Of a DNA stretch of 64,000 nucleotides, positions 33,538-64,000 are shown in pieces. The notes below the pieces were generated by a model. That model saw only the letters and a list, made by a program, of their open reading frames with translations. It was not told where the DNA came from and did not search any database. The translations under genes were made by a program, and so were the position numbers. The DNA lies in the NCBI GenBank assembly GCA_016183565.1, contig JACPEJ010000001.1:293241-357240 (forward strand), in the 5' to 3' direction. Each line of letters starts with the position of its first letter. Position 1 is the stretch's first letter. This stretch comes from Candidatus Blackburnbacteria bacterium. Its GTDB lineage: Bacteria; Patescibacteriota; Microgenomatia; UBA8517; UBA10165.

Positions 33538-34245
33538 CTATTTTAGGAGGTCTGGGCGGTTTTGACGAGTTCGTTCGATTGAAGCGCTCTTTTTCCACCC
33601 CTCAATTTTTTTGTGGTTCCCTGACAGAAGAGTTTCTGGTACTTTCCACCCTTTAAAATCTTCAGGTCTTGTGTACTGTGGATACTCCAGTAAACCACTC
33701 GCTTTGCTCGGGACTGTTTTCTGCGAAAATAAATTTTCAGTTAATCCAGAAAATGACTCGAACTGTGTGGCCTCGACTTTTGCAAGAACCCCAGGGATTA
33801 ACCTGACTACTGCGTCGACGATTACCATTGCGGGGAGTTCTCCGCCTGTTAGAACATAGTCTCCTATTGAAATTTCTTCGTCTATCAGGTGTTCGCGTAC
33901 TCTGTGATCGACTGTTTCATAGTGACCTGCGATAAGGATTAGGTGGTCAAGTTGTGCAAACCCTCTTGCTTTTTCCTGGTTAAAAACTTTTCCACCGGGA
34001 TCAAGTAGAATTGTTTTTCGTTTTGCCTTTTTCGTTTTGCGTTTTAGCTCTGTGAGAGCTTTATATAAGGGTTCTACCATTAAGACCATGCCAACTCCAC
34101 CTCCGTAGGGTTTGTCGTCCACTGTTTTGTGTCGACCTTTAGCCCAATCTCGTAGATTGTGGATATTGATTTCCACTAGTGACCTGTCCTGCGCTCGCCG
34201 GATAATACTTTCCCTGAACGGACCCTCAAACATTTCAGGAAACAA
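33538..34245 (-). CDS. trmD: tRNA (guanine37-N1)-methyltransferase TrmD
   Basis: SPOUT knot motifs (DPGGK, ILIAGHYETVDHRV, TGGELPAMVIVDAVVRLIPGVL). True N-terminus extends about 8 codons upstream (in-frame ...YIDILTLFPEMF, non-ATG start). Confidence 0.9.
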   Translation of the reverse strand: MFPEMFEGPFRESIIRRAQDRSLVEINIHNLRDWAKGRHKTVDDKPYGGGVGMVLMVEPLYKALTELKRKTKKAKRKTILLDPGGKVFNQEKARGFAQLDHLILIAGHYETVDHRVREHLIDEEISIGDYVLTGGELPAMVIVDAVVRLIPGVLAKVEATQFESFSGLTENLFSQKTVPSKASGLLEYPQYTRPEDFKGWKVPETLLSGNHKKIEGWKKSASIERTRQNRPDLLK

Positions 34246-34334: not shown

Positions 34335-35291
34335 ATGCGACTTGTGATAGTTATTCCCACTTATAACGAGAAAGAGAATATAGTAAACCTTTTGCACAGG
34401 ATCAATTTAACTTTTCGTGATATACGCGGTTGGACGTTGCGGGTTTTGATTGTTGATGACAATTCTCCTGATGGAACTGCGGATGCTGTGAGAGATGTTA
34501 TGAGACGTAATAGAAAAGTGTTTTTGTTATCTCGGAGTAAAAAAACTGGTTTAGGAGGGGCATACTTTTCGGGTATGGAAAGGGCGTTTAAGGAGATGGG
34601 TGCTGATGTAGTTGGGATAATGGACGCTGATTTATCGCACAACCCTGCCTATATTCCCGCTTTCTTAGGGAAGATACAGAGAGGATATGAGTTTGTGGTT
34701 GGGGCTCGGTATGTTCGAGGGGGTTCGATTCCTTCTGATTGGCCGTTATATCGGAAATTTCTTTCGGTATTTGGTAATACTATGGTTTCGGTTTTTCTTG
34801 GTAAGACTACACTAACTGATTGGACGTCCGGATATCGCTTTTTTAATAAAGACGTGTATGTGAAGGTGAGGCCTGAGATAATTGAAGATCGTGCGGAGTA
34901 TAGGGGGTATACGTTTAACATTTCTTTTGCGTATCATGCTGTGAGTGAGGGTTTTAAGATTGGCCAGGTTCCTATTAAGTTTTCCGATAGGAAAAAGGGG
35001 AAATCGAAACTTGGGTTGGAGTATCTTTTCCACACCCCTATTTTTTTATTGAAGACTCGACTTTCTATATTGAGAAAAGGTATAGTGAAAAGATCGAGAG
35101 TTGTAATTAGAGTTTGTTCCAGAACTCAATCTGTGGGGCCTGTCGGGAGCTCGTCCTCGGCCCGTATATCCTCGTCCGCCAGCTGGCGGACTGCGGGCGC
35201 TCGGCGGGACTCCTCGTTCGAGTCTGAGCCTGAGGGCTCATCCCTCAGAGTCGAAGACCTCCGCTCCCGACACCCACTTAGAAATTTTTAG
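34335..35291 (+). CDS. GT2 polyprenol-phosphate mannose/glucose synthase (DPM1/Ppm1-like), 3' end replaced by a GC-rich element; probably truncated
   Basis: VIVIPTYNEKENI...VDDNSPDGT...DAD motifs. Collinear with 35293..36519 to about residue 255, then a low-complexity Ser/Arg/Ala tail encoded by the GC-rich element. Lacks the paralog's GtrA-like TM domain. Confidence 0.75.
   Translation: MRLVIVIPTYNEKENIVNLLHRINLTFRDIRGWTLRVLIVDDNSPDGTADAVRDVMRRNRKVFLLSRSKKTGLGGAYFSGMERAFKEMGADVVGIMDADLSHNPAYIPAFLGKIQRGYEFVVGARYVRGGSIPSDWPLYRKFLSVFGNTMVSVFLGKTTLTDWTSGYRFFNKDVYVKVRPEIIEDRAEYRGYTFNISFAYHAVSEGFKIGQVPIKFSDRKKGKSKLGLEYLFHTPIFLLKTRLSILRKGIVKRSRVVIRVCSRTQSVGPVGSSSSARISSSASWRTAGARRDSSFESEPEGSSLRVEDLRSRHPLRNF
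35133..35278. other. GC-rich (~65%) palindrome-dense structured element; candidate ncRNA or small inserted element
   Basis: 10-bp closing helix TGTCGGGAGC (35141..35150) / GCTCCCGACA (35263..35272). Internal hairpins: perfect 16-nt palindrome TCCGCCAGCTGGCGGA (35175..35190), GACTC/GAGTC (35208..35224), CTGAGGG/CCCTCAG (35230..35248). Translation in the host ORF frame is low-complexity. Confidence 0.45.
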
Positions 35292-37771: not shown

Positions 37772-38515
37772 ATGGCTCAGAAACTTACGTTGAGTGTTAT
37801 TTTGCCTGTTTATAATGAGGAGAAGGATGTACCTAGAAATGTTCCTATTCTCTATAAGTATCTGAAAGAGAATTTTACTCAATATTCTTGGGAACTTATC
37901 ATTGCTGATAATGGTCCTTCTAAAGATAGAACTCCGGAAATCTCGAAAGAACTAACTAAGAACTATAGGAGTTTGTTTTATATTTGTATTCCACGGCCAG
38001 GGCGTGGGGGTGCGTTAAAAGAAGTTTGGCAAAAGCGAAAAAGTGACTACCTTTGCTATATGGATGTTGATTTGTCTTCAGATCTTTCCTTTTTGTCTCA
38101 ACTTATTTCCTTTCTAGAGAATGGTGCTGATATTGCTATCGGTTCACGTCTTAAGAGGGGGGCTAAGGTGTATGGTCGGACACTCTTACGTGAGATAATG
38201 TCCAGAGGCTATAATATCTTGATCCGAACCTTCTTTTGGACAAGCTTCTGCGATGCTCAGTGTGGATTCAAAGCGATTAGAAAAGAAGCAGCGATGAAGC
38301 TTTTACCGTATGTGGAGGATAAAGGTTGGTTTTTTGATTCAGAACTTTTGATAACTGGCGAGAAAGCGGGGTTTAAAATTAAAGAAGTTCCTATAGTTTG
38401 GCGTGATGATCCTGCTTCAACTGTTAAGGTTGCAAAAACTGCTTGGGGGGATATTAAGGGACTAGCAAGGCTTTTTATCACCAGGCCATGGAAAAAAATT
38501 CAAAATTCAAAATAA
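37772..38515 (+). CDS. GT2 glycosyltransferase (DPM/DPG-synthase-like); last 7 codons and stop lie in heptamer repeats
   Basis: ILPVYNEEKD...IIADNGPSKD...DVDLS motifs. C-terminus ...PWKKIQNSK* is encoded by AAAATTC repeats. Confidence 0.85.
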   Translation: MAQKLTLSVILPVYNEEKDVPRNVPILYKYLKENFTQYSWELIIADNGPSKDRTPEISKELTKNYRSLFYICIPRPGRGGALKEVWQKRKSDYLCYMDVDLSSDLSFLSQLISFLENGADIAIGSRLKRGAKVYGRTLLREIMSRGYNILIRTFFWTSFCDAQCGFKAIRKEAAMKLLPYVEDKGWFFDSELLITGEKAGFKIKEVPIVWRDDPASTVKVAKTAWGDIKGLARLFITRPWKKIQNSK

Positions 38516-40074
38516 AATTGCTTCCTTCGGAAGGGCAAAATTCAAAATTAAAATTCAAAATTCAAAATTTTCAGAAGTGGATGTCAACAAACAGATATGA
38601 ATTTGCTCTTCTAGTTTTTATCCTCATTCTGGCCACCCTTTTTAGACTTTGGAGAATAGATGAGTACTTGCCATTTTTAGGTGACGAGGGGCGAGACGTA
38701 AGGGTAGTAAGACGTTTTGTGACGGATTTTGATTTGATGTTTATAGGGCCGAGAACTTCGATTGGTGATATGTACCTTGGCCCCTTGTTTTACTATCTTA
38801 TTGCCCCTGGGCTTTTGTTTGCTAATTTCTCACCAGCTGGCCCAGCTACCACTGTAGCACTTTTTGGTGTTGCAACGGTTTTTTTGATTTGGCGGGTTGC
38901 TCGCGAATGGTTTGGTAGGGAAGCTGCAATTATTTCATCTTTTCTTTTTGCGATTTCTCCCTTGGTGGTAAATCTATCGAAGCATTCCTGGAATCCGAAC
39001 ATCATGCCCTTTTTTGCTCTTTTGTCAGTTTATAGTATTTGGAGGGTGTGGAGTAAAGGAGAGTATCTGTGGTTTTTAGTACTTGGAGGAGCGTACGCTT
39101 TTGTTCTTCAGTCTCACTATCTGGGTTTGCTTCTGGGACCTGTGTTAGGGCTGTCGGGGTTGTTAGGGTGGTTGGGAGCAAGAAGGGCACGCACAACAAA
39201 AAGTTTTCTTGTTTTCTTGTTTTCAGGTTCCTTAGTTTTTATCGTTTTAATGTCCCCTTTGTTTATTTTTGATTCCAAGCATGGTTGGCATAATACGCAG
39301 GCTATAGCCACTTTTTTTACCAAGAGACAAGAAACTGTTTCTGTCAAGCCGTGGAATGCTGTACCTCTAACATGGCCTATTTGGAAAGATAAGGTTGTTA
39401 ATGATCTTTTGACAGCTGGTAATCAAAACCTGGCTTTATATGTAGCGTTAGGTTTGTTGCTTGCTTGTCTTTGTGTGTTTCTCGAAAGCAGGAGAAAGCT
39501 TTCCTCTCTTGTACCTTTTGGTCTGACTGTTTTTTGGATATTAGTGGGTCTTTTGGGTTTGGGGTCTCTTAAACAAAATGTTTATAGCCATTATTTTGGA
39601 TTTATGTTTCCGGCGGTATTTCTTTTGATTGGGGCTATTACCGGGTTTTTTTGGAAAGGCAGGACGAGATGGGTGGTTGTACTTGCTATAGCTGTGTTGA
39701 TAACGATCAACTTACAAAAAAATCCCCTTTTCCTGCCTCCCCAGAGGCAGATGCAGAGAGTTCAAGAAATTGATAAAAAAATTCTCAAAGAAGCGGATAG
39801 CGAGCCCTTTAATTTTGCTTTAATTGCTAAGAGAAATTATGAGGAAGGTTATCTTTATTTCTTTGAATTATGGAATTCGCCGGTTCGGGAAATCAACGCT
39901 CAGAATACTCGTGATACTTTAACTGAGCAACTTTTTGTTGTTTGCGAAGACCCTGTTTGTGAGCCGATTAATAATGCTAAAGCTGAAATTGCGAATTTTG
40001 GTTGGGCGAAAATAGAAAGTGAAGAGCAAATTGGGGGTGTAAAATTGTACAAACTAGTTCACACAAAACAATGA
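38488..40074 (+). CDS. GT-C glycosyltransferase, GT39/ArnT-like
   Basis: FLGDEGRD...IGP.TSIGD...GPLFYYLIAPG motif and 11+ TMs. The ATG at 38488 adds a Lys-rich 31-aa leader from the repeat element; the native start may be the Met at ~38581 (MSTNRYEF...). Confidence 0.75.
   Translation: MEKNSKFKIKLLPSEGQNSKLKFKIQNFQKWMSTNRYEFALLVFILILATLFRLWRIDEYLPFLGDEGRDVRVVRRFVTDFDLMFIGPRTSIGDMYLGPLFYYLIAPGLLFANFSPAGPATTVALFGVATVFLIWRVAREWFGREAAIISSFLFAISPLVVNLSKHSWNPNIMPFFALLSVYSIWRVWSKGEYLWFLVLGGAYAFVLQSHYLGLLLGPVLGLSGLLGWLGARRARTTKSFLVFLFSGSLVFIVLMSPLFIFDSKHGWHNTQAIATFFTKRQETVSVKPWNAVPLTWPIWKDKVVNDLLTAGNQNLALYVALGLLLACLCVFLESRRKLSSLVPFGLTVFWILVGLLGLGSLKQNVYSHYFGFMFPAVFLLIGAITGFFWKGRTRWVVVLAIAVLITINLQKNPLFLPPQRQMQRVQEIDKKILKEADSEPFNFALIAKRNYEEGYLYFFELWNSPVREINAQNTRDTLTEQLFVVCEDPVCEPINNAKAEIANFGWAKIESEEQIGGVKLYKLVHTKQ
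38494..38572. repeat. Repeat element copy 2: AAAATTC-type heptamer repeats on both sides of the hairpin core TGCTTCCTTCGGAAGGGCAAAA (38519..38540)
   Basis: Seen in sequence. Spans the stop of GT2 37772..38515 and the first ~28 codons of ORF 38488..40074. Confidence 0.75.
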
Positions 40075-55414: not shown

Positions 55415-56335
55415 ATGATTAAAGTTTTTGCTGTTATCCTAAATTGGAACAGAAAGCAGGATACTATTGAATGTCTCGAGAGTATTAAAAAGTTAACTAT
55501 TTCTGGTTTTCAGTTTTCGGTTGTAGTTGTAGACAATGGTTCGATGGATGGATCTTGGGAGGTTCTTCAGTCTATCAAACTGCCGAGGATAGATTATCAC
55601 TTTATAGAAAACAAAGAGAATCTTGGGTATGCTGGGGGAAATAATGTTGGAATGAAGTATGCGCTTGACGCGGGGGCTGATTATGTTTTGGTGCTTAACA
55701 ACGATACTATTGTTAGTAGGGATTTAGTTGCCAATTTTTTGAATGCTGCAGAAGAACATAAAGAAGTGGGGATATTTTCACCCAAGATCTATTTTGCTCC
55801 TGGGTTTGAGTTTCATCAGGAAAGATACAAGAAGGATGAAACCGGAAGAGTTATTTGGTATGCAGGTGGTAAGTTTGATTGGAAGAATATTTTAGGGACA
55901 AACAGGGGGGTGGATGAGGTTGATAAAGGGCAATATAACAAGAGGATCAAGATAGATTTTGCCACAGGTGCATGTATGTTTATACGAAGAGAGTTGTTGG
56001 AGGCAGTGGGGTTATTTGATGAGAAGTATTTTTTGTATCTCGAGGATGTTGATCTTTCTAGTAGAGCAAAAAGACACAACTGGAAAATACTTTATTTGCC
56101 TAAAGCCCAACTTTGGCATAAAGTTTCTAGAAGTTCTGGTATTGGCAGTCAATTGAATGATTATTATATAACTCGTAACCGTCTCTTGTTTGGCAGGCGG
56201 TATGCTTCCTTCAGAGCTAAAATTGCATTGTTTCGTGAAGCTTTAGTGTTGCTTGTTTTTGGGCGAGAGTGGCAAAAGATTGGTGTTGCTGATTTTCTTT
56301 TGGGAAAGTTTGGTAGAGGCAGTTATTCTCCATGA
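55415..56335 (+). CDS. GT2 glycosyltransferase (rhamnosyltransferase WbbL-like)
   Basis: AVILNWNRKQDT...VVVDNGSMDGS...NNDT motifs. Confidence 0.85.
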   Translation: MIKVFAVILNWNRKQDTIECLESIKKLTISGFQFSVVVVDNGSMDGSWEVLQSIKLPRIDYHFIENKENLGYAGGNNVGMKYALDAGADYVLVLNNDTIVSRDLVANFLNAAEEHKEVGIFSPKIYFAPGFEFHQERYKKDETGRVIWYAGGKFDWKNILGTNRGVDEVDKGQYNKRIKIDFATGACMFIRRELLEAVGLFDEKYFLYLEDVDLSSRAKRHNWKILYLPKAQLWHKVSRSSGIGSQLNDYYITRNRLLFGRRYASFRAKIALFREALVLLVFGREWQKIGVADFLLGKFGRGSYSP

Positions 56336-57093
56336 AGACCAATGTGTCTGTGATTATTATTGCCAAAAATGCTGCAGATAAAATAGGTGATGCGATAGAT
56401 TCTGCAAAGGGTTTAACTTCTGATGTAGTTGTACTGGAGGGCGGTTCAGTCGATCAAACAGTTATGGTGTCTAAGAGTCATAATGCTCGTGTTGTAAAAC
56501 AGACTGGAAAGAATTTTTCGGAGTGGAGAAATCAGGGTATGGAAATATCTAAGGCCCCTTGGGTTCTTTATCTAGATCATGATGAGCGATTGATACCAGA
56601 GCTCAAGACGGAGGTAGAGAAACAGATAGAGGGCAGCAAGTTTGTGGCTTATGCTATACCAAGAAGGAATTTTATTTTAGGGAGAGAGTTTAAACATGGA
56701 GGTGAGTGGCCAGATTACCAACAACGATTGTTTTTTAGGGAAAGGTTTAAGAGGTGGGAAAAAGAATTACACGAGGAACCTCGGTTTGAGGGTAAACTTG
56801 GGTATCTTAAAAGCCCACTTATTCACTTGAAGCATGATAGTATTTCTGAGATGGTGGAGAAAACTAACAATTGGTCTGAAGTTGAGGCAAAACTACTTTT
56901 TGGGGCGAAGCATCCTCGGATGTCTTGGTGGAGATTTATACGGATTATGCTGATGGAGTTGTGGGATAGGTTGATATTGAAAAAAGGGATTTTAGATGGC
57001 GGAGAAGGGGTGGTATATTCACTTTATCAAATGTGGAGTAGGTATTTGACATATGCTAAATTGTGGGAAATACAACAAGGAGGTGGTAGGTGA
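56332..57093 (+). CDS. GT2 glycosyltransferase
   Basis: SVIIIAKNAADKI...YLDHDE motifs. Confidence 0.8.
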   Translation: MKTNVSVIIIAKNAADKIGDAIDSAKGLTSDVVVLEGGSVDQTVMVSKSHNARVVKQTGKNFSEWRNQGMEISKAPWVLYLDHDERLIPELKTEVEKQIEGSKFVAYAIPRRNFILGREFKHGGEWPDYQQRLFFRERFKRWEKELHEEPRFEGKLGYLKSPLIHLKHDSISEMVEKTNNWSEVEAKLLFGAKHPRMSWWRFIRIMLMELWDRLILKKGILDGGEGVVYSLYQMWSRYLTYAKLWEIQQGGGR

Positions 57094-58123
57094 TATGCGT
57101 GCTGTAATTTATGATCCCTATCTTGATACTGGTGGTGGCGGGGAGCGTTATATTTTAACTGTTGCCAGCCTTTTAATAAAAAAGGGTTGGCAGGTTGACG
57201 TATGCTGGCCGGATCCTAAGATAGGCAATTGGCTTAAGGAAAGACTAGGTATCGATCTTTCAAAAGTTACTTTTGTAGACAATACGTCACGAGGGGCTGG
57301 TTATGATTTAGTTTTCTGGCTTTCGGATGGGAGCATTCCTTTGTTGTTTGGTAAGAAAAATATTTTACACTTTCAGACGCCTTTTCAAAATGTAGGAGGT
57401 AAATCTATTTTAAATAAGGTAAAGTTCTTAAGGGTTAGTAGTGTTGTTTGTAATTCAAAGTTTACAAAGAGTTTTATAGATAAGGAATATGGAGTAACGA
57501 GCGTTGTTGTTTACCCGCCGGTTGATACCGAATTATTTAAACCGGGGAGGAAAGAAAATATTATTCTTTTTGTTGGTAGGTTTTCCCAATTGCAACAGTT
57601 AAAGCGCCAGGATGTTTTAGTTGAAAATTTTGGAAGGATGTGTGGTGCGGGTCTTAAGAATTGGAGACTGGTTTTGATTGGTGGTAGTGAAGTTGGTGGT
57701 AGGGAGTATGTTAAAGAACTAAGAGAGAAGGCAGTTTCTTTGCCGATTGATATCCTTGAGAATTTGCCTCTTCAAGAGGTGCAAAAATATTATGCTGAGT
57801 CAAAGATATTTTGGTCTGCTGTTGGGTATGGGGTAGATGAATTAGAATCACCTTATCAAGTCGAGCATTTTGGAATGAGTGTTGTGGAGGCACAGGCGGC
57901 TGGTTGTGTTCCTGTGGTTATTTCTAAGGGTGGACACAAAGAGATAATAGTAAATGGAGAGAATGGGTTGTTGTGGGTGGAAGACGGGGAGTTGAGAGAA
58001 GCAACACTTCAATTGATTAAAGACGAAAGGAGGATGAGAGAAATTGCCAAGAAAGCAAAAGAGGATGCGGAGAGATTCTCAGTCCAAGAGTTCAAGAGGA
58101 AAATTTTGGAAACTATTAGTTAG
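57053..58123 (+). CDS. GT4 glycosyltransferase (GT-B fold)
   Basis: C-terminal E...FGMSVVEAQAAGCVPVVISKGGHKEII GT4 signature. Confidence 0.85.
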   Translation: MLNCGKYNKEVVGDMRAVIYDPYLDTGGGGERYILTVASLLIKKGWQVDVCWPDPKIGNWLKERLGIDLSKVTFVDNTSRGAGYDLVFWLSDGSIPLLFGKKNILHFQTPFQNVGGKSILNKVKFLRVSSVVCNSKFTKSFIDKEYGVTSVVVYPPVDTELFKPGRKENIILFVGRFSQLQQLKRQDVLVENFGRMCGAGLKNWRLVLIGGSEVGGREYVKELREKAVSLPIDILENLPLQEVQKYYAESKIFWSAVGYGVDELESPYQVEHFGMSVVEAQAAGCVPVVISKGGHKEIIVNGENGLLWVEDGELREATLQLIKDERRMREIAKKAKEDAERFSVQEFKRKILETIS

Positions 58124-59207
58124 AATATGGCCGACATTTGCAATTATCGCAGTTGTATTAATTTTCTTCTATCCTGTTTGGGTTAAAAATTTAATACCTC
58201 TTCCTGCTGACTTTGTTGTGGGTGTTTATTATCCTTGGCTTGACTATAAGTGGGGGTTTTCTGTAGGGGTACCGGTTAAGAACCCCATGACTACGGATGT
58301 TGTTTCGTTTGTATATCCAATGCAAATGTTGGCTATTGATCTTATTAAGAGTGGACAATGGCCTTTGTGGAATCCTTATATCTTAACCGGAACTCCTCTT
58401 CTTGCTAATTTTCAGTCAGCTCCGTTTTCTCCAACGAACTTTGTTTATTTCCTTTTTGACAGATTGACGGCGTGGAGTGTGCAGGTTGCTTTGCAGCATT
58501 TTTTGGCGGCGATATTTACCTATCTCCTGCTTCGTTACTGGAAAGTTTCAAGATTGTCATCTGTTTTAGGAGGTGTGATTTTTGCTTTTAGCGGATTTAA
58601 TACTATTTGGTCTCAGTGGAATGGGCATGCCTTATCAGGAGCGTTTATACCTTTATTAATTCTTCTTGAAGATAGGTGGTTAAAAATTGGCAAATGGCGA
58701 GATGGTGCGTTGTTTTCGGTTGTACTATCGGCACAAATCTTGTCAGGTTATCCACAAGTGGTTTTTTATACAGGAGTTGCGTTAGTGTTATTGGCAATTT
58801 TTAGGTTTGAGAAAACAACAAGATGGTTGGGAAGATTGGGTGGATTGGGGATATTTGGATTGTTGGGAATTGGGTTGTCGTCTTTTCAAATTTTACCCGG
58901 TGCGGAGCTTCTTTCTCTATCTCAGCGAGAGATAGAGCCACATCCTTATGGGTGGGCTTTTTTGCCTTGGGTTAAAATAATTACATTTTTGGCTCCTGAT
59001 TACTTTGGAAATCATGCAACTCAGAATTACTGGGGGCCTCAAGATTATACGTCAAATACTGGTTTTGTAGGGGTAGTGGCATTTAGCTTAGCTGTGGCGG
59101 GAGCTATGCTATTGAGAAAAAAGCGAGAAGTTATTTACATTGTGCTTGTGTTAGTGTTTGCACTCCTTTTATCTTTTCCTACCCCAATCTCAGTGTTTTT
59201 ATGGTAA
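58044..59207 (+). CDS. YfhO-family membrane protein, N-terminal part (ends at in-frame TAA 59205..59207)
   Basis: GQWPLWNPYILTGTPLLANFQSAPFSP matches the YfhO LPLWNPY..G.P motif. Confidence 0.6.
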   Translation: MPRKQKRMRRDSQSKSSRGKFWKLLVRIWPTFAIIAVVLIFFYPVWVKNLIPLPADFVVGVYYPWLDYKWGFSVGVPVKNPMTTDVVSFVYPMQMLAIDLIKSGQWPLWNPYILTGTPLLANFQSAPFSPTNFVYFLFDRLTAWSVQVALQHFLAAIFTYLLLRYWKVSRLSSVLGGVIFAFSGFNTIWSQWNGHALSGAFIPLLILLEDRWLKIGKWRDGALFSVVLSAQILSGYPQVVFYTGVALVLLAIFRFEKTTRWLGRLGGLGIFGLLGIGLSSFQILPGAELLSLSQREIEPHPYGWAFLPWVKIITFLAPDYFGNHATQNYWGPQDYTSNTGFVGVVAFSLAVAGAMLLRKKREVIYIVLVLVFALLLSFPTPISVFLW

Positions 59208-59279
59208 AGCGGTCTCTTTGGTTTTCAAGCTGCGTCAGCACATAGGGCGTTAGTCCTATTTAATTTAAGTGTTGCTCTT

Positions 59280-60512
59280 TTGGCAGCGTTTGGAGCGGAC
59301 TGTTTTTTGGAGACAGGAAAACTGCGACTGAGAACACTTTTGCCGGCTTTTTCGATTTTGATAGTTTTTAGTGTTATATCTGTCTATTTTTATCTTAACC
59401 CTCCTTCTGTTATTGATCCTACCAACAACAATCTTTTTGGGGCGGAGCGGGCTGATTACCGGGTAGGATTGCGGAACTTAGTTTTGCCAATTCTTGCATT
59501 TTTTTCGTCTCTCCTGGTTTTTAAGGTGACTGGTGGCGTGAACAGAGTTCGTCAGTTGAGTCTTGTACTAGTTTTTTTGATTATGCTAACAGAGCTTTAC
59601 TGGTTTTGGGCGAAATTTACGCCTTTTTCTCCAAGAAGGATTGTATTCCCCAAAACACCAGTTTTAGAGTTTTTGGAAAAACAGGAAAAGCCCTTTAGAA
59701 CTACTGGTTATAAAGTAATTCCGATAAACATGAGGATGCCGTACAAAATTGAAACTTTAGAAGGTTATGATGCAATCTATCCACTTTCGCTATCGCAGTT
59801 TGTTGCCGCTATAACTAGTGGAAAAAGTGGGACTCAGCCTGTTGGTAGGTATGCCACAATAGGTGACGAAACGGTCAAAGCGTTGGATTTGGTGAATGTT
59901 AAGTATGTTATTGCTGTAAAAAGAGATGAGCGGAGTAGGCCGTCTCCCGAAGGGAAGATTGCTTCCTCTTTGGAGAATCCAAAGCTGCAATTGGCTTACG
60001 AGGATAAATCAGTTGTAGTTTTGGAGAGCCGGAATGTTTTACCTCGTGCTTTTGTGGTTTACTCTTGGGAAAGGTCATTAGGGAACAAGACGCTAGATCG
60101 TTTTCTTGATCCAGATTTTCCGATTAGTGAAAAAGTTTTTCTAGAGGAAGAACTTGGGTTTGTAAATAAGGCAGCAGGAAAAGGAGAATCTAGTGTGCTC
60201 TACGAAAAATATAGTGATCAAGAAAGTATGTTTAAGGTGAGAACCTCAAAGGATGGTCTTTTGTTTGTTTCTGATACATACTATCCAGGTTGGAAGGCAT
60301 ATGTAGATGATGTTGAAACGAAGATATATAAGGCCAATTTCGCGTTTAGGGCTATAGCAGTTCCAGCTGGAGAGCATGTTGTGAAGATGACTTATAAACC
60401 TGACTCCTTTTTTAATGGATTGAGGCTATCAGCTATTTCTTTGACGTTTCTTTTGTTGGGTGGAGTTACTAAGGTACTTATTGGCAGGAAACATGGAAAA
60501 GCCTATACTTGA
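59280..60512 (+). CDS. YfhO-family membrane protein, C-terminal part; same frame as 58044..59207
   Basis: 59280-58044 = 1236 = 3x412. No other stop between 59208 and 59279 (SGLFGFQAASAHRALVLFNLSVALLAAFGA...). Combined length 822 aa is typical for YfhO. Confidence 0.55.
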   Translation: MAAFGADCFLETGKLRLRTLLPAFSILIVFSVISVYFYLNPPSVIDPTNNNLFGAERADYRVGLRNLVLPILAFFSSLLVFKVTGGVNRVRQLSLVLVFLIMLTELYWFWAKFTPFSPRRIVFPKTPVLEFLEKQEKPFRTTGYKVIPINMRMPYKIETLEGYDAIYPLSLSQFVAAITSGKSGTQPVGRYATIGDETVKALDLVNVKYVIAVKRDERSRPSPEGKIASSLENPKLQLAYEDKSVVVLESRNVLPRAFVVYSWERSLGNKTLDRFLDPDFPISEKVFLEEELGFVNKAAGKGESSVLYEKYSDQESMFKVRTSKDGLLFVSDTYYPGWKAYVDDVETKIYKANFAFRAIAVPAGEHVVKMTYKPDSFFNGLRLSAISLTFLLLGGVTKVLIGRKHGKAYT

Positions 60513-61195: not shown

Positions 61196-62070
61196 CAACT
61201 GTAGTTGTAATTCCAAATTGGAATGGTCTGGTGCTTTTAGAAAGGAACCTGCCGGCGGTAATGAAGCTAAAAGCTGACGAGATTATTGTTGTTGATGATT
61301 GCTCTTCTGATGAAAGTGTTGCTTTTTTGGAAAAGAATTATCCTCAAGTTATTCTGATTAAAAATGAGAAAAATTTAGGGTTTTCGAGAAGCGTCAACAA
61401 AGGAGTATTGGCAGCTTCTTCAGACATAGTGTTTTTACTTAACTCTGATGTTATTCCAAGTTTGGGAATTGTAAAACCTGTTCTTGCTCATTTTAAAAAG
61501 CCCGATGTTTTTGGTGTGTCGTTTGCGGAGGTTGGGTATTCTTGGGCGAAGCCGAAGCTCACGCATGGTTATTTAGGGCATGAGTCTGGCGAGAAGACAA
61601 ACAAAGCGCATGACACTTTTTGGGTAAGTGGTGGTAGTGGAGCTTTCAGGCGATCTATGTGGTTAGAACTTGGTGGGATGGATACTCTTTTTACCCCATT
61701 TTATTGGGAGGATGTTGATCTTTCTTTAAGGGCTCTTAAAAAGGGGTGGAAACTTATTTGGGAGCCTAAGGCGATAGTGGAACACAAACACGAGTCAACG
61801 ATTAATACTACTTACTTTTCCAGAAGATATTTGCATTATATTAAAGAAAGAAACGAGCTTTTGTTTAATTGGAAATACTTAGACAAAAAATATCTTTTTC
61901 GACAGCATTTTCCAGGGATTATTTGGAGGTTGAAACATCCGGGTTATTTGATAGTTTTATTGTTGGCTCTTTCCAAATTGCCTTTTGTTTTACGCCAGCG
62001 AGTACTGGTGAGACAAGAGAGCTTCTTGAGTATTAAGGATGTATTGTTGAAATTTGGTGTTAAATGTTAA
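61192..62070 (+). CDS. GT2 glycosyltransferase
   Basis: VVVIPNWNG...VVDDCSSDES...NSD motifs. Confidence 0.85.
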   Translation: MTTVVVIPNWNGLVLLERNLPAVMKLKADEIIVVDDCSSDESVAFLEKNYPQVILIKNEKNLGFSRSVNKGVLAASSDIVFLLNSDVIPSLGIVKPVLAHFKKPDVFGVSFAEVGYSWAKPKLTHGYLGHESGEKTNKAHDTFWVSGGSGAFRRSMWLELGGMDTLFTPFYWEDVDLSLRALKKGWKLIWEPKAIVEHKHESTINTTYFSRRYLHYIKERNELLFNWKYLDKKYLFRQHFPGIIWRLKHPGYLIVLLLALSKLPFVLRQRVLVRQESFLSIKDVLLKFGVKC

Positions 62071-63602
62071 AAAGCAAAAGCTGTTTTCTTCTTTTGGCAA
62101 TATTTATACTAGGTGTTGTCCTGCGAGTTTTATTTTTTCCTGGGAATATTTATTTTGGTTTTGATCAAGCAAGAGATGCATACGAGTCCCAAAATATTTA
62201 CGAAAACTTTGACTTAAAGTTAATTGGACCGTCGACAGCTTTGGAAAACCTATTTCATGGTCCTCTTTACTGGTATTTGATTGGTCCATTGTATCTGATG
62301 GGGAATGGAAATCCAGAATTTCCTGCGCTTTTTCTTTTGATTCTTAATGCCGTTGGGGTGTTTATAATTTATTGTATTGGTGCTGTTTTGGCAAATAAAC
62401 TAGTTGGGTTTTTGGCAGCTTTCCTTTACGCTGTTTCTTTTGAACAAACGCAATATGCCCTTTATTTTGGCAACCCTGGCCCTGCGGTTATCTGCATACT
62501 TTTGTTTTATTTGGGCATCTTGCTTTTTGGGATTAGGAAAAAATGGTGGGGTATTCCTCTTTCGATGTTTGCATGGGGAATGTCGATCCAGTTTGAGTTT
62601 TTCCTTGTATATCTAGGTGTTATTTTTTTGGCGTTGGTTTTTGTTTTCAGGAGAAGGTTACCAGTGGTTCTTAGGCCATCGAGAATTTTTGTTTCTGTCC
62701 TCTCTTTTTTAGTTCCACTTTCCACTTTTATACTGGCGGAGATTAAATATGGTTGGAGGACTGTATTGACGCTAGCTCATTTGATAAGTAGTAGTGGGGG
62801 TTCTAGAGATTTGGGCAAGATAATAACAGTTTACTTTTCTAATTTGACTTTGCACATACGGCACAATCTCTTTTCCTTTAATGAAAATTTAGCACGAGTG
62901 GTATTGATTTTTTTGGTGGGTTTGGGATTTTACTTTTTGTTAAGGAGAGGAAAAGAGAGACGAGTAGCTGTGTTTTTGTTAATTTGGTTTTTTTCGAGTA
63001 GTGTTATATTAATATTTGGCAATCCTGAGTTGTATTATTCTGATATCGGTGTTTCGGCGGGAGTATTGCTTTTAGTGGCATATTTTCTTGTAAAATTGTT
63101 TAAGAAAAGCGTGTTAATTTCTAGCGTTTTATTGGGAGTTTTAGTTATAAGTAATTTCTCTTTGATTCGTAAGCAGAATCCGCAGGGAATAATAAATGGT
63201 ATTTATGTTCAGGAAGGGATGTTGTTGTCTAGGGAAAAAGAGATGATAGATTACATCTATAGGGAGGCCCGTGGTCGACCAATTGTGGTTTCTGGGAGCA
63301 CGATGCCTTTGAAAATCAACACAACTTGGGCGTATTTGTTTAACTGGTATGGAAAGGGGGAATATGGATATTTACCGTACTGGACAGGAGAGGTGGCACT
63401 TGGATATCCGGGTAGTTTGCCTTCTTGGAAGTCCCAAGAAACGGAGTATGTGATGTTTAGCATAATAGAGCCTACAAGAGGTGTGAGAGGAGCGTTTATA
63501 GAAAACTTTTTAGTGGAACAAGAACAATATGGTGTTGTACGAGAAGAGAGGATTTTTGGCGTGAATCCCCAAGCGCAGTTTGTTGTGCAAAGAAGGCAAT
63601 AA
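62064..63602 (+). CDS. GT-C glycosyltransferase GT39/ArnT-like; inverted paralog of 16394..17929
   Basis: FGFDQARD...IGPSTALENLFHGPLYWYLIGP and C-terminal IIEPTRGVRG motifs, collinear with 16394..17929. Confidence 0.75.
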   Translation: MLKSKSCFLLLAIFILGVVLRVLFFPGNIYFGFDQARDAYESQNIYENFDLKLIGPSTALENLFHGPLYWYLIGPLYLMGNGNPEFPALFLLILNAVGVFIIYCIGAVLANKLVGFLAAFLYAVSFEQTQYALYFGNPGPAVICILLFYLGILLFGIRKKWWGIPLSMFAWGMSIQFEFFLVYLGVIFLALVFVFRRRLPVVLRPSRIFVSVLSFLVPLSTFILAEIKYGWRTVLTLAHLISSSGGSRDLGKIITVYFSNLTLHIRHNLFSFNENLARVVLIFLVGLGFYFLLRRGKERRVAVFLLIWFFSSSVILIFGNPELYYSDIGVSAGVLLLVAYFLVKLFKKSVLISSVLLGVLVISNFSLIRKQNPQGIINGIYVQEGMLLSREKEMIDYIYREARGRPIVVSGSTMPLKINTTWAYLFNWYGKGEYGYLPYWTGEVALGYPGSLPSWKSQETEYVMFSIIEPTRGVRGAFIENFLVEQEQYGVVREERIFGVNPQAQFVVQRRQ

Positions 63603-64000
63603 TGAAGGAACTATCTGTAGTAATTGTTAATTATAATACTGGTGAGTTGTTGGGAAAATGTGTTGATTCAGTCAAAAAAACAGCAGGGTTCGCTGAAATT
63701 ATAGTTGTTGATAATGCATCGACTGATGGATCGGGCCGCGCTTTGCGGAATTTTCAATTTTCAATTTTCAATTTTCAATTTATAGAAAACAAAAAGAACT
63801 TGGGGTTTGCAAGGGCTGTAAATCAGGGAATAAAAAAAGCGAAGGGGGAATATATTCTGCTTCTCAACCCTGATACTGTTGTTGAGCCAAAGGCGATTGA
63901 TAATATGCTTCAGTTTGCAAAGCTGGAACCTTCTGTGGGTGCAATAGGTGCTAGGTTGTTGAATCCAGACGGTTCGGTTCAGGGGTCTGTTATGCACTTT
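63602..64000 (+). CDS. GT2 glycosyltransferase (3'-truncated by window edge) containing an in-frame heptanucleotide repeat tract
   Basis: ATG at 63602 overlaps the upstream TAA (TAATG). MKELSVVIVNYNTGELL...VVDNASTDGS...ENKKNLGFARAVNQG. Not in the ORF track because there is no stop within the window. Confidence 0.8.
   Translation, partial: MKELSVVIVNYNTGELLGKCVDSVKKTAGFAEIIVVDNASTDGSGRALRNFQFSIFNFQFIENKKNLGFARAVNQGIKKAKGEYILLLNPDTVVEPKAIDNMLQFAKLEPSVGAIGARLLNPDGSVQGSVMHF
63740..63772. repeat. Heptanucleotide tandem repeat (AATTTTC)x4 plus a partial unit inside the GT2 coding sequence
   Basis: Encodes NFQFSIFNFQF between the DGS and ENKKNLGFA motifs. Unit length is not a multiple of 3. Confidence 0.85.

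What the first reader, a model, noticed from the sequence alone, without database searches (positions are those of the whole stretch)
63740..63772. In-frame heptanucleotide microsatellite in a GT2 glycosyltransferase; candidate phase-variation switch
(AATTTTC)x4.7 sits inside the GT2 ORF starting at 63602, between the DxD-region motif VVDNASTDGS and ENKKNLGFA. A 7-nt unit cannot be added or lost without frameshifting the gene. This is the classic architecture of slipped-strand contingency loci controlling surface glycan genes (e.g. Haemophilus, Campylobacter, Helicobacter, Mycoplasma). Related AAAATTC-type heptamer arrays occur at 38494..38572, where they form the last codons and stop of GT2 37772..38515 and the N-terminus or leader of the following GT39-like gene. 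Repeat-number changes there would alter the GT2 C-terminus, the stop position, and coupling to the downstream GT-C. Phase-variable glycosylation has not, to my knowledge, been described in Patescibacteria-like genomes.
Basis: partly seen in the sequence, partly recalled or inferred. Interest (0 to 1): 0.65.

Follow-up and report, generated by a model that had tools for sequence, protein, structure and literature searches.

The report
Heptamer repeat inside a glycosyltransferase gene
A perfect 33-base run of a 7-base unit sits inside a sugar-transferase gene of a Patescibacteria (Blackburnbacteria) genome; one slipped unit would kill the enzyme and the run has been kept across species, but its copy number never differed in any comparison I could make, so it is a candidate slow switch, not a shown one.

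Summary
The repeat is real, but it lies at 63749..63781, 9 nt right of the stated coordinates. It is (AATTTTC)x4.7, perfect, and the longest simple repeat in the window (simulated maximum 18 nt). It encodes NFQFSIFNFQF, the end of helix a2 and start of strand b3 of a 270-aa GT2 (MBI2268191.1, Candidatus Blackburnbacteria). A change of 1 or 2 units gives a stop at residue 58-92.

Diverged GT2 genes carry heptamer arrays at this site.
- Arrays are identical at synonymous sites between species of 67-70% protein identity (p=0.007 and 0.0004).
- The unit differs between lineages in all copies at once (AATTTTC, AATTTCC, AAATTYC), which points to array turnover.
- A Saccharibacteria-like contig has three AATTTTC arrays in two adjacent GT genes.

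Copy number never varied.
- Four such strains (98-99.3% identical) show no change at three arrays.
- Six Woesebacteria variants differ only by point changes.
- The second site (38495..38569) is identical in at least five runs.
- Predicted frameshift products are absent from 15 billion proteins, a weak test.
- Logan contigs break at array base 27, which fits a variant at base 28 rather than a 7-nt allele.

Verdict: a plausible low-rate frameshift toggle. Fast phase variation is not supported.

The parts
63749..63781 (+). (AATTTTC)x4.71 perfect heptanucleotide array. It encodes NFQFSIFNFQF, residues 50-60 of the GT2.
   Evidence: 33 nt against a simulated maximum of 18; a change of 1 or 2 units gives stops at residues 58-92, and a change of 3 units stays in frame.
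63602..64000 (+). 5' part (133 codons) of a 270-aa family-2 glycosyltransferase. The gene runs off the window. The full protein is P0121 (MBI2268191.1, MAG Candidatus Blackburnbacteria bacterium).
   Evidence: Pfam PF00535, E=5.9e-29. The first 133 residues are identical to P0121. AlphaFold2 model with mean pLDDT 85.3: helix 44-54 and strand 58-63, so the array spans the end of a2, a turn and the start of b3. In PDB 2z87 the aligned segment is EEIVREFE-SLLNIKYVRQ.
63736..63748 (+). Small G+C hairpin CCGCG-CTT-TGCGG directly abutting the 5' end of the array. It is terminator-like only by a simple consensus scan.
   Evidence: It is not conserved in sequence in orthologs. Significance unknown.
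62064..63602 (+). Upstream PMT_2 (GT-C) membrane glycosyltransferase whose stop overlaps the GT2 start (TAATG). It was used as an anchor to fetch other assemblies.
38495..38513 (+). (AAAATTC)x2.7 array forming the last codons (KKIQNSK) and TAA stop of GT2 37772..38515. A gain of 1 or loss of 2 units fuses the GT2 in frame to the downstream GT-C.
   Evidence: Natural GT2-PMT_2 fusion homologs of 717-741 aa exist.
38521..38533 (.). Short hairpin CTTCC-TTC-GGAAG between the two site-2 arrays.
   Evidence: No Rfam match in 38300..38750.
38536..38569 (+). (CAAAATT)x5 array with one 6-nt unit, ending 11 nt before ATG 38581, the probable true start of the GT-C gene.
   Evidence: Homologs of the GT-C align from query residue about 25-42, so the array-encoded 31-residue leader from ATG 38488 has no counterpart.
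37772..38515 (+). GT2 (DPM-synthase-like, 247 aa) whose 3' end is the first site-2 array.
   Evidence: Pfam PF00535, E=2.7e-24. Identical in 4 Logan contigs.
38581..40074 (+). PMT_2 / GT-C glycosyltransferase. The ORF is open upstream to ATG 38488, across the arrays.
   Evidence: The 528-aa product is identical in 6-7 Logan contigs from at least 5 sequencing runs.

Best explanation
The array is a short coding heptanucleotide microsatellite at the a2/b3 junction of a GT-A-fold GT2 enzyme, in a large glycan gene cluster of a Candidatus Blackburnbacteria (Patescibacteria) genome.

Shown: it is perfect, non-random and in frame. A slip of one or two units truncates the enzyme at residues 58-92, which is a null allele. 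Arrays at this codon position persist in several diverged GT2 lineages. They are identical at synonymous sites between species. The unit differs between lineages in all copies at once.

Inferred: the array turns over by slipped-strand gain and loss of units on evolutionary time scales. Because each single step is a frameshift, the gene passes through reversible OFF states. I therefore read it as a low-rate frameshift toggle, a slow contingency locus, held at one in-frame length because the peptide is part of the fold. I do not read it as a fast phase-variation switch. Every sampled genome shows the ON state with a fixed copy number.

At 38495..38513 the same kind of one-unit step separates a split GT2 + GT-C pair from a fused GT2-GT-C protein, an architecture that exists in relatives.
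For: - The array is real and non-random.
- A change of 1 or 2 units gives stops at residues 58-92.
- The ortholog P0134 / L004 (70% protein identity, 66% nt identity) has the same array start and the same gene length. The longest identical nt run is 24 nt and covers the array. Codons are identical at 8 of 9 conserved residues in the tract against 33 of 81 outside (Fisher p=0.007).
- The second species pair, L048 / L049 (67% protein identity), has identical codons at 11 of 11 against 77 of 165, and a 34-nt identical run (p=0.00035).
- The unit differs in all copies between lineages: AATTTTC (window, L004, L042), AATTTCC (L048, L049), AAATTYC (L203). Decayed arrays are seen in L050 and P0275. 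This is the pattern expected from concerted evolution.
- Intergenic (AATTTTC)n arrays do differ by whole units between related Prevotella genomes (L005 against L039), so this unit can slip.
- L043 / L060 carries three AATTTTC arrays in two adjacent GT genes, and L004 has (ACAAGTC)x3.9 in another GT2.
- At site 2, a gain of 1 or loss of 2 units gives an in-frame fusion, and natural fusions exist.
Against: - No copy-number difference was seen anywhere:
  - the window and L004 have the same length;
  - four Saccharibacteria-like strains at 98-99.3% nt identity show no change at three arrays;
  - six Woesebacteria variants and five P0335-cluster members all keep the same array length, the former differing only by point changes F>Y and S>P;
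  - site 2 is identical in at least 5 runs.
- No OFF allele appears among the GT2 hits of the frame-blind DNA pattern scans.
- Predicted products of 1-, 2- and 3-unit changes are absent from the 15-billion-protein collection. This test is weak, because the 58-aa partial product called on the Logan contig is absent too.
- 4.7 units is far below proven heptanucleotide switches.
- The array replaces, without any length change, the KLQKKLSNL-type segment of its nearest non-array relatives. Simple expansion does not explain that.
- Homogenisation could occur by conversion within the array without any OFF intermediate.
Confidence: 0.4

Rival explanations
1. Passive coding microsatellite. The array arose once from the N-F-Q/P codons (AAT TTT CAA TT...) at this position. 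It is tolerated because the segment is the most variable part of the GT2 N-terminal domain. It has no switching role, and slipped alleles are simply purged. Its persistence would reflect constraint on length and hydrophobic pattern, plus occasional conversion among units without length change.
For: - Copy number is invariant in every comparison.
- Close strains differ by point substitutions inside the array, including non-synonymous ones.
- Decayed arrays exist (L050, P0275, L004 units 4-5).
- NFQL/NFQF at the start of b3 already gives an 11-nt period-7 proto-repeat in non-array relatives such as P0191.
- Heptanucleotide repeats are the most abundant long SSR class in many bacteria (Mrazek 2007, as cited in PMC4679880).
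- AATTTTC arrays are no commoner than control heptamers in viral contigs: 35 against 18, 48 and 41.
Against: - Perfect arrays are identical at synonymous sites in two independent species pairs whose flanks are saturated (p=0.007 and 0.00035). A hazardous repeat with no function should be broken up by synonymous changes.
- The unit changes in all copies at once between lineages.
- The same 30-nt array occurs at non-homologous sites of two adjacent GT genes in L043.
Confidence: 0.27
2. Classical fast phase variation. The tract is hypermutable, populations are ON/OFF mixtures, and the GT2-dependent glycan epitope switches stochastically, as with lic2A/lgtC in Haemophilus or neuO in E. coli K1.
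For: - Non-triplet perfect SSR in the 5' third of a glycan GT gene, with null products on slippage.
- Above the threshold of 3 units used to nominate heptanucleotide SSRs in H. influenzae (PMC2651432).
- The same unit occurs in several GT genes of one genome (L043), as with (CAAT)n in Haemophilus LOS genes (my knowledge of that system).
- Two Logan assemblies break inside the array.
- A nonsense polymorphism in a neighbouring YfhO-like gene shows that loss-of-function variation exists in this cluster.
Against: - At 0.7-2% strain divergence, three arrays are unchanged in four strains. True contingency loci differ between near-clonal isolates; 65.6% of neuO genomes are OFF (PMC13001214).
- There are only 4.7 units.
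- The Logan break at base 27 is reproduced by a variant at base 28. Alleles of -1, +1, +2, -2 or -3 units predict breaks at 26, 30, 30, 19 and 12.
- No OFF allele was found.
Confidence: 0.13
3. Sequence-specific element. The array, or its peptide NFQFSIF, is a shared module of glycosyltransferase genes. It could be a binding array for a single-strand nucleic-acid-binding regulator, one protein per heptamer as proposed for Csp/S1 proteins and TAACTGA repeats. It could instead be a peptide motif copied between GT genes by recombination.
For: - The same unit, phase and length (30-33 nt) occur in GT2 genes of different Patescibacteria lineages: Blackburnbacteria (the window) and a contig group titled Candidatus Saccharibacteria (L025/L043). 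L042 and L047 carry it in unplaced contigs.
- Two identical 30-nt arrays plus a third sit at non-homologous positions in adjacent GT genes, all followed by AAC.
- Conservation is at the DNA level.
- The site-2 array ends 11 nt before the probable start codon, like TAACTGA repeats (PMC4679880).
Against: - The unit is not conserved: AATTTCC and AAATTYC variants occupy the same site, so a sequence-specific partner would have to co-evolve.
- Strain variants change the peptide.
- No Rfam family matches, though only site 2 was scanned.
- No candidate binding protein was identified.
- The antisense promoter-like match TTGAAA-17-GAAAAT is lost in the variant units.
Confidence: 0.15
4. Assembly or sequencing artefact.
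For: Logan contigs end inside the array.
Against: - The same array start is present in an NCBI MAG and two independent Logan assemblies.
- The gene is full length and in frame, with the same length as its ortholog.
- Homologous arrays occur in JGI, ENA, GTDB and Logan data from unrelated projects.
Confidence: 0.01

Closest known systems
neuO (E. coli K1 capsule O-acetyltransferase, CUS-3 prophage): heptanucleotide (AAGACTC)n in the 5' coding region
   Same: It has a 7-nt unit inside the ORF of a surface-glycan-modifying enzyme. Full-length translation occurs only at in-frame copy numbers. The array is translated as a 7-residue periodic peptide (PMC13001214).
   Different: neuO has 3-53 units, most often 20. 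65.6% of complete genomes are OFF, and single cultures hold alleles one unit shorter or longer at 2-5% (PMC13001214). [quoted passage not shown] Here there are 4.7 units, inside the catalytic GT-A fold (end of a2, start of b3), with no length variation observed.
Haemophilus influenzae SSR contingency loci, including LOS glycosyltransferase genes with tetranucleotide repeats and (AATTTTG)14 inside hmw1A of strain PittAA
   Same: SSRs inside surface-structure genes, with frameshift ON/OFF. One unit is shared by several GT genes of a genome (my knowledge of lic1A/lic2A/lic3A). The hmw1A unit AATTTTG is the reverse complement of the window's site-2 unit CAAAATT (PMC2651432).
   Different: Those tracts are long, differ between strains, and tetranucleotide tracts switch at about 1e-4 per generation (PMC2651432). 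The arrays here are short and invariant between strains.
Intergenic heptamer direct repeats (TAACTGA sets of 2-6 copies just upstream of start codons) in Beggiatoaceae, Cyanobacteria and Bacteroidetes
   Same: Short heptamer arrays of a few copies, immediately upstream of a start codon, like 38536..38569. Their phylogenetic distribution is patchy (PMC4679880).
   Different: Different unit. [quoted passage not shown] The main array here is translated.
Long simple sequence repeats of 5-11 nt in prokaryotes (Mrazek et al. 2007, as summarised in PMC4679880 and PMC4692102)
   Same: Heptanucleotide repeats are the most abundant class in most genomes, attributed to polymerase slippage. L060 has six period-7 tracts of at least 20 nt in 11.7 kb and none of at least 18 nt at periods 5, 6, 8 or 9.
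   Different: That work notes that coding regions favour units that are multiples of three. Here non-triplet arrays sit inside intact ORFs.

Membership tests
SSR contingency locus (phase-variable gene) | Uninterrupted tandem repeat of a 1-9 nt unit within the ORF or promoter | tested here: met
   (AATTTTC)x4.71, 100% perfect, at 63749..63781, inside the ORF.
SSR contingency locus (phase-variable gene) | Gain or loss of a unit shifts the frame and gives a truncated, inactive product | tested here: met
   -1 unit: stop at residue 58. -2: 85. +1: 92. +2: 65. A change of 3 units stays in frame.
SSR contingency locus (phase-variable gene) | Repeat number differs between closely related strains or within a population | tested here: not met
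   No unit-number difference in window against L004, 4 Saccharibacteria-like strains at 3 arrays, 6 Woesebacteria variants, or site 2 in at least 5 runs. Predicted slipped products were not found, a weak test. Raw reads could not be examined.
SSR contingency locus (phase-variable gene) | Tract long enough to be hypermutable | tested here: inconclusive
   4.7 units exceeds the screening threshold of 3 for heptamers (PMC2651432). It is well below proven heptamer switches: hmw 13-38 units, neuO mostly about 20 (PMC2651432, PMC13001214).
SSR contingency locus (phase-variable gene) | Measured reversible switching of the phenotype | not testable with these tools
   Uncultured organism; no reads or cultures available.
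SSR contingency locus (phase-variable gene) | Gene acts on a surface structure | tested here: met
   GT2 within a cluster of more than 30 kb holding GT2, GT4, PMT_2/GT-C, YfhO and flippase-like (Polysacc_synt) genes. The surface role is inferred from these families.
Family 2 glycosyltransferase (GT-A fold) | Match to PF00535, conserved Asp-containing motifs, Rossmann-like b-a-b core | tested here: met
   PF00535 E=5.9e-29. D37, D42, N89 and D91 are invariant in alignments. AF2 model pLDDT 85.3, pTM 0.86. PDB chondroitin synthase 2z87, E=1.1e-15.
neuO-type translated heptad extension | Repeat lies in a variable 5'/N-terminal region of the coding sequence, and its length can vary in frame and tunes activity | tested here: not met
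   The array encodes the end of helix 44-54, a turn and the start of strand 58-63 of the catalytic domain. All array-bearing orthologs keep one length class.
Heptamer direct repeats upstream of start codons (TAACTGA type), for site 2 only | Array of a few heptamers within several nt upstream of a start codon, non-coding | tested here: inconclusive
   38536..38569 ends 11 nt before ATG 38581, and homologs do not align to the array-encoded leader. But the ORF is open from ATG 38488, and gene callers chose that start.

The most novel reading that the evidence does not exclude
Short heptanucleotide arrays (AATTTTC and its concerted variants) are a selectively maintained feature of glycosyltransferase genes across Patescibacteria, seen here in Blackburnbacteria, Woesebacteria and a Saccharibacteria-like lineage. 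They would act as low-frequency reversible frameshift toggles. At one locus they would act as a split/fused toggle between a GT2 and a GT-C enzyme. This would give these ultra-small, host-dependent cells stochastic surface-glycan diversity. It would be the first SSR contingency system in the candidate phyla radiation, and one that works with unusually short tracts.
Probability: 0.2. Interest if true: 0.7.

Novelty: new member of a known kind. Interest (0 to 1): 0.5.

Why it matters
Patescibacteria live attached to host cells and devote much of their small genomes to glycosyltransferases. How they vary their surface is largely unknown apart from diversity-generating retroelements (my knowledge).

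I found no paper in the searchable library that links phase variation or contingency loci to this group itself.

If the arrays toggle GT genes, even slowly, they give a directly testable handle on surface variation in uncultured episymbionts: amplicon length profiling of one 33-nt tract in existing samples.

Even if they do not switch, one pattern is unusual and asks for a mechanism. Perfect non-triplet arrays are kept at synonymous sites across species while the unit itself drifts in concert.

Tried and rejected
1. Searching with the 133-aa fragment gave only hits of 54% identity or less, because the tool appears to filter by length ratio. A chimera query, the window N-terminus plus the C-terminus of P0061, recovered the true full-length protein P0121.

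2. The gene-position index has no entry for P0121. Sequence beyond 64000 and the right-hand Logan contig could therefore not be fetched.

3. The upstream GT-C has no relatives in GTDB species genomes or JGI metagenomes.

4. The genome-wide pattern scan for the array followed by GGNTTYGC gave 35 hits. All but one (L025) were intergenic arrays in Bacteroidales, Thermoanaerobaculia, Planctomycetota and others, not GT2 genes.

5. I rejected the idea that AATTTTC is an intrinsically favoured unit. Viral-contig counts are 35, against 18, 48 and 41 for control heptamers.

6. I rejected the idea that the Logan contig break shows alleles differing by 7 nt.

7. The idea that length differences in the P0335 cluster reflect array variants was wrong. 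They are N-terminal truncations or alternative start calls.

8. The RNA fold of site 2 is not more stable than shuffles (z=+1.4), and there is no Rfam match.

9. The period-7 peptide SLITNYQSLIT in P0124, P0126 and P0156 cannot be encoded by a 7-nt unit (worked out by hand), so it is not part of this phenomenon.

11. The imperfect period-7 hit at 34013..34045 lies in trmD and is a 14-nt imperfect duplication.

Full report
**Observation**

The window holds a perfect (AATTTTC)x4.71 array at 63749..63781. This is 9 nt to the right of the stated 63740..63772. It is the longest perfect simple repeat in the 64 kb. In 300 first-order Markov simulations the longest period-7 tract averaged 15.3 nt and never exceeded 18. 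No other period from 1 to 12 exceeds 22 nt in the real sequence.

The array lies in an ORF that starts at ATG 63602. That start overlaps the stop of the upstream PMT_2 gene (TAATG), and the ORF runs off the window. The 133 codons present match Pfam PF00535 (E=5.9e-29). They read ...VVDNASTDGSGRALRNFQFSIFNFQFIENKKNLGFA....

**Source and full-length gene**

A search with the fragment alone found nothing above 54% identity, apparently because of a length-ratio filter. A chimeric query recovered the exact full-length protein, P0121. It is 270 aa, accession MBI2268191.1, named 'MAG: Candidatus Blackburnbacteria bacterium', from a 686-kb contig. The lineage is Patescibacteria group, Microgenomates group.

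An AlphaFold2 model (pLDDT 85.3, pTM 0.86) places residues 44-54 in a helix and 58-63 in a strand. The array-encoded NFQFSIFNFQF (residues 50-60) is therefore the end of a2, a turn and the start of b3 of the GT-A fold. It is not a disordered linker. The alignment to chondroitin synthase 2z87 agrees.

The gene sits in a cluster of more than 30 kb holding GT2, GT4, PMT_2/GT-C, YfhO, methyltransferase and flippase-like genes.

**Consequence of slippage**

In silico, a loss of 1 or 2 units, or a gain of 1 or 2 units, gives stops at residues 58, 85, 92 and 65. These fall before or at the NPD (DxD-equivalent) motif. A change of 3 units stays in frame.

**Comparative evidence that the array is maintained**

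The closest ortholog is P0134 (70% protein identity, also 270 aa), in a syntenic cluster on Logan contig L004. At the same codons it has AATTTTC AATTTTC AATTTTC AACTTTA AAACA. The two genes align without gaps. Overall nt identity is 66%, yet the longest identical run (24 nt) is the array. At conserved residues, 8 of 9 codons in the tract are identical against 33 of 81 outside (Fisher p=0.007).

Other GT2 genes carry heptamer arrays at the same structural site:
- L042 has (AATTTTC)x4.4.
- L048 / P0256 and L049 / P0266 (the latter in a cluster named Woesebacteria/Microgenomates) have a perfect (AATTTCC)x4.6.
- L203 / P0298 has (AAATTYC)x4.7.
- L050 / P0318 and P0275 have decayed arrays.

L048 and L049 are 67% identical in protein. 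Their array is identical over 34 nt, with 11 of 11 codons the same against 77 of 165 outside (p=0.00035).

So arrays stay perfect at synonymous sites for long periods, while the unit itself differs between lineages in all copies at once. This is the signature of concerted evolution, meaning turnover of units within the array. A repeat that was only a mutational hazard should show the opposite pattern.

A different GT2 subfamily also carries AATTTTC arrays at the analogous site, in L043, L044 and L025 (the last from a MAG titled Candidatus Saccharibacteria) and in L047. L043 has three arrays. Two identical 30-nt arrays lie at non-homologous positions of one GT2, and a 24-nt array lies in the adjacent GT4-like gene. 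All are in frame. L004 has (ACAAGTC)x3.9 in another GT2, where the window's ortholog is 5 residues shorter.

The unit is not intrinsically common. In viral contigs, AATTTTC arrays number 35, against 18, 48 and 41 for control heptamers.

**Evidence against fast switching**

Every comparison that could have revealed a change in unit number was negative.
- Four strains of the Saccharibacteria-like organism (L043, L044, L025, L060; 98.0-99.3% nt identity, 11-66 SNPs) have identical lengths at all three arrays. Their few indels lie elsewhere.
- Six members of the Woesebacteria 90% cluster are all 270 aa. In the array they differ only by point substitutions, F>Y and S>P.
- Five members of the P0335 cluster carry both arrays unchanged.
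- All GT2 hits of the frame-blind DNA pattern scans were in frame.
- Exact look-ups of the predicted products of 1-, 2- and 3-unit changes, for several of these genes, found nothing among about 15 billion proteins, while a wild-type control was found. This is weak evidence, because the 58-aa partial product called on the Logan contig is absent from the collection too.

By contrast, intergenic arrays of the same unit do differ by whole units between related Prevotella genomes (L005 against L039). Proven heptanucleotide switches are much longer and very polymorphic (PMC13001214, PMC2651432).

**The assembly break**

Two Logan (k=31) contigs from different runs end after exactly 27 array bases. 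A de Bruijn simulation shows that a homogeneous 33-nt array is passable. Alleles of -1, +1 or +2, -2 and -3 units would stop the contig at 26, 30, 19 and 12 bases. A foreign longer array would stop it at 30. Only a variant at array base 28 gives 27; that is the first base of the CAA codon for Q59, or an extra T.

So the population is heterogeneous at or beyond that base, but not in the way phase variation predicts. I could not fetch the right-hand contig.

**Origin**

The nearest non-array relatives have ...LRKLQKK(L/V)SN(F/L)x(L)IEN over the same number of residues. NFQ(L/F) at the start of b3 is already an 11-nt period-7 proto-repeat (AAT TTT CAA TT). The array thus occupies the same length as the segment it replaces. 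Plain expansion does not explain this, and it remains unexplained.

**Second site**

(AAAATTC)x2.7 at 38495..38513 supplies the last codons and the TAA of GT2 37772..38515. A hairpin follows, and then a (CAAAATT)x5 array at 38536..38569 that ends 11 nt before ATG 38581.

Homologs of the downstream GT-C align from about residue 25-42 of the long ORF, so the array-encoded leader is probably not part of the protein.

A gain of 1 or loss of 2 units in the first array fuses the GT2 in frame to the GT-C, giving 769 or 762 aa. Natural GT2-PMT_2 fusions of 717-741 aa exist among the homologs.

This site is identical in 6-7 Logan contigs from at least five runs. The region has no Rfam match and no unusual RNA stability.

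**Conclusion**

The best reading (confidence about 0.4) is a short coding heptanucleotide array that is maintained and turns over on evolutionary time. It can only change through frameshifted intermediates, which makes it a slow contingency locus. Its length in the ON state is fixed by its place in the fold.

A passive tolerated microsatellite (0.27), a sequence-specific element shared by GT genes (0.15) and true fast phase variation (0.13) remain open. Read-level length profiling of existing samples would decide between them.

I found no publication in the searchable library linking SSR phase variation to Patescibacteria.

Noticed in passing
window 59205: The window has T here, giving TGG TAA and splitting a YfhO-like gene (58044..60512) into ORFs of 387 and 410 aa. 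Logan contigs L001, L054 and L055 have G (GAA) and one 815-aa ORF. This is either a nonsense polymorphism or a MAG consensus error in the same glycan cluster.
   Followed up: partly
L043 2524-2553, 2827-2856, 3513-3536 (same in L060 10082-10111, 10385-10414, 11071-11094): Three (AATTTTC)n arrays lie in two adjacent GT genes of a Saccharibacteria-like genome. Two are identical 30-nt arrays at non-homologous positions of one GT2. All are followed by AAC. All are unchanged in four strains at 98-99.3% identity.
   Followed up: partly
L004 2644-2670: A perfect (ACAAGTC)x3.9 array lies inside another GT2, the ortholog of window 56332..57093. It encodes ITSHKSQVTSF and coincides with a 5-residue insertion relative to the window.
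   Followed up: partly
window 38495..38581; proteins P0346, P0357, P0394, P0401: Homologs of the GT-C at 38581..40074 exist as natural GT2-PMT_2 fusions of 717-741 aa. In the window, the split pair differs from a fusion by one heptamer unit.
   Followed up: yes
window 35246: Logan contigs from several runs (L003, L057, L058) all begin exactly here, inside the 3' arm of a small hairpin (CTGAGGG-CTCAT-CCCTCAG). This is at the unusually G+C-rich 3' end of GT2 34335..35291. It suggests strain-level structural variation upstream.
   Followed up: no
L005-L039, L045 3223-3325: Intergenic (AATTTTC)n arrays of 3.3-7.7 units occur in many unrelated MAGs (Prevotella, other Bacteroidales, Thermoanaerobaculia, Planctomycetota, Chloroflexota). 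L045 / L046 carry four different heptamer arrays back to back (GAAAATT, TCTAAAC, CTCTAAT, TCTTAAT).
   Followed up: no
window 39203..39224: A perfect (GTTTTCTT)x2.75 octamer tract lies inside the GT-C gene. It is longer than any simulated period-7 tract; simulations were not run for period 8.
   Followed up: no
L060 5915-5934, 6013-6032, 8899-8918: The Saccharibacteria-like contig has six period-7 tracts of at least 20 nt in 11.7 kb and none of at least 18 nt at periods 5, 6, 8 or 9. This points to a genome-wide bias towards heptamer arrays.
   Followed up: no
proteins P0279, P0124, P0126, P0156: Other tandem peptide repeats occur in the same N-terminal region of GT2 homologs. TKLTKLTKLIKL (3-residue period) is at the same a2/b3 site, and SL(I/V)T(N/S)Y(Q/Y)SL(I/V)T lies between a1 and b2. 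The latter cannot come from a 7-nt unit.
   Followed up: no
window 63736..63748 and 38521..38533: Both heptamer sites abut a short G+C hairpin. CCGCG-CTT-TGCGG lies directly 5' of the main array, and CTTCC-TTC-GGAAG lies between the site-2 arrays. This may be coincidence or a stall site that favours slippage.
   Followed up: no
L060 8954-9319 / L043 1395-1760: A 121-aa protein of the 23S rRNA-intervening-sequence / bAvd family (PF05635, PF22296) lies about 600-700 nt upstream of the array-bearing GT2.
   Followed up: no
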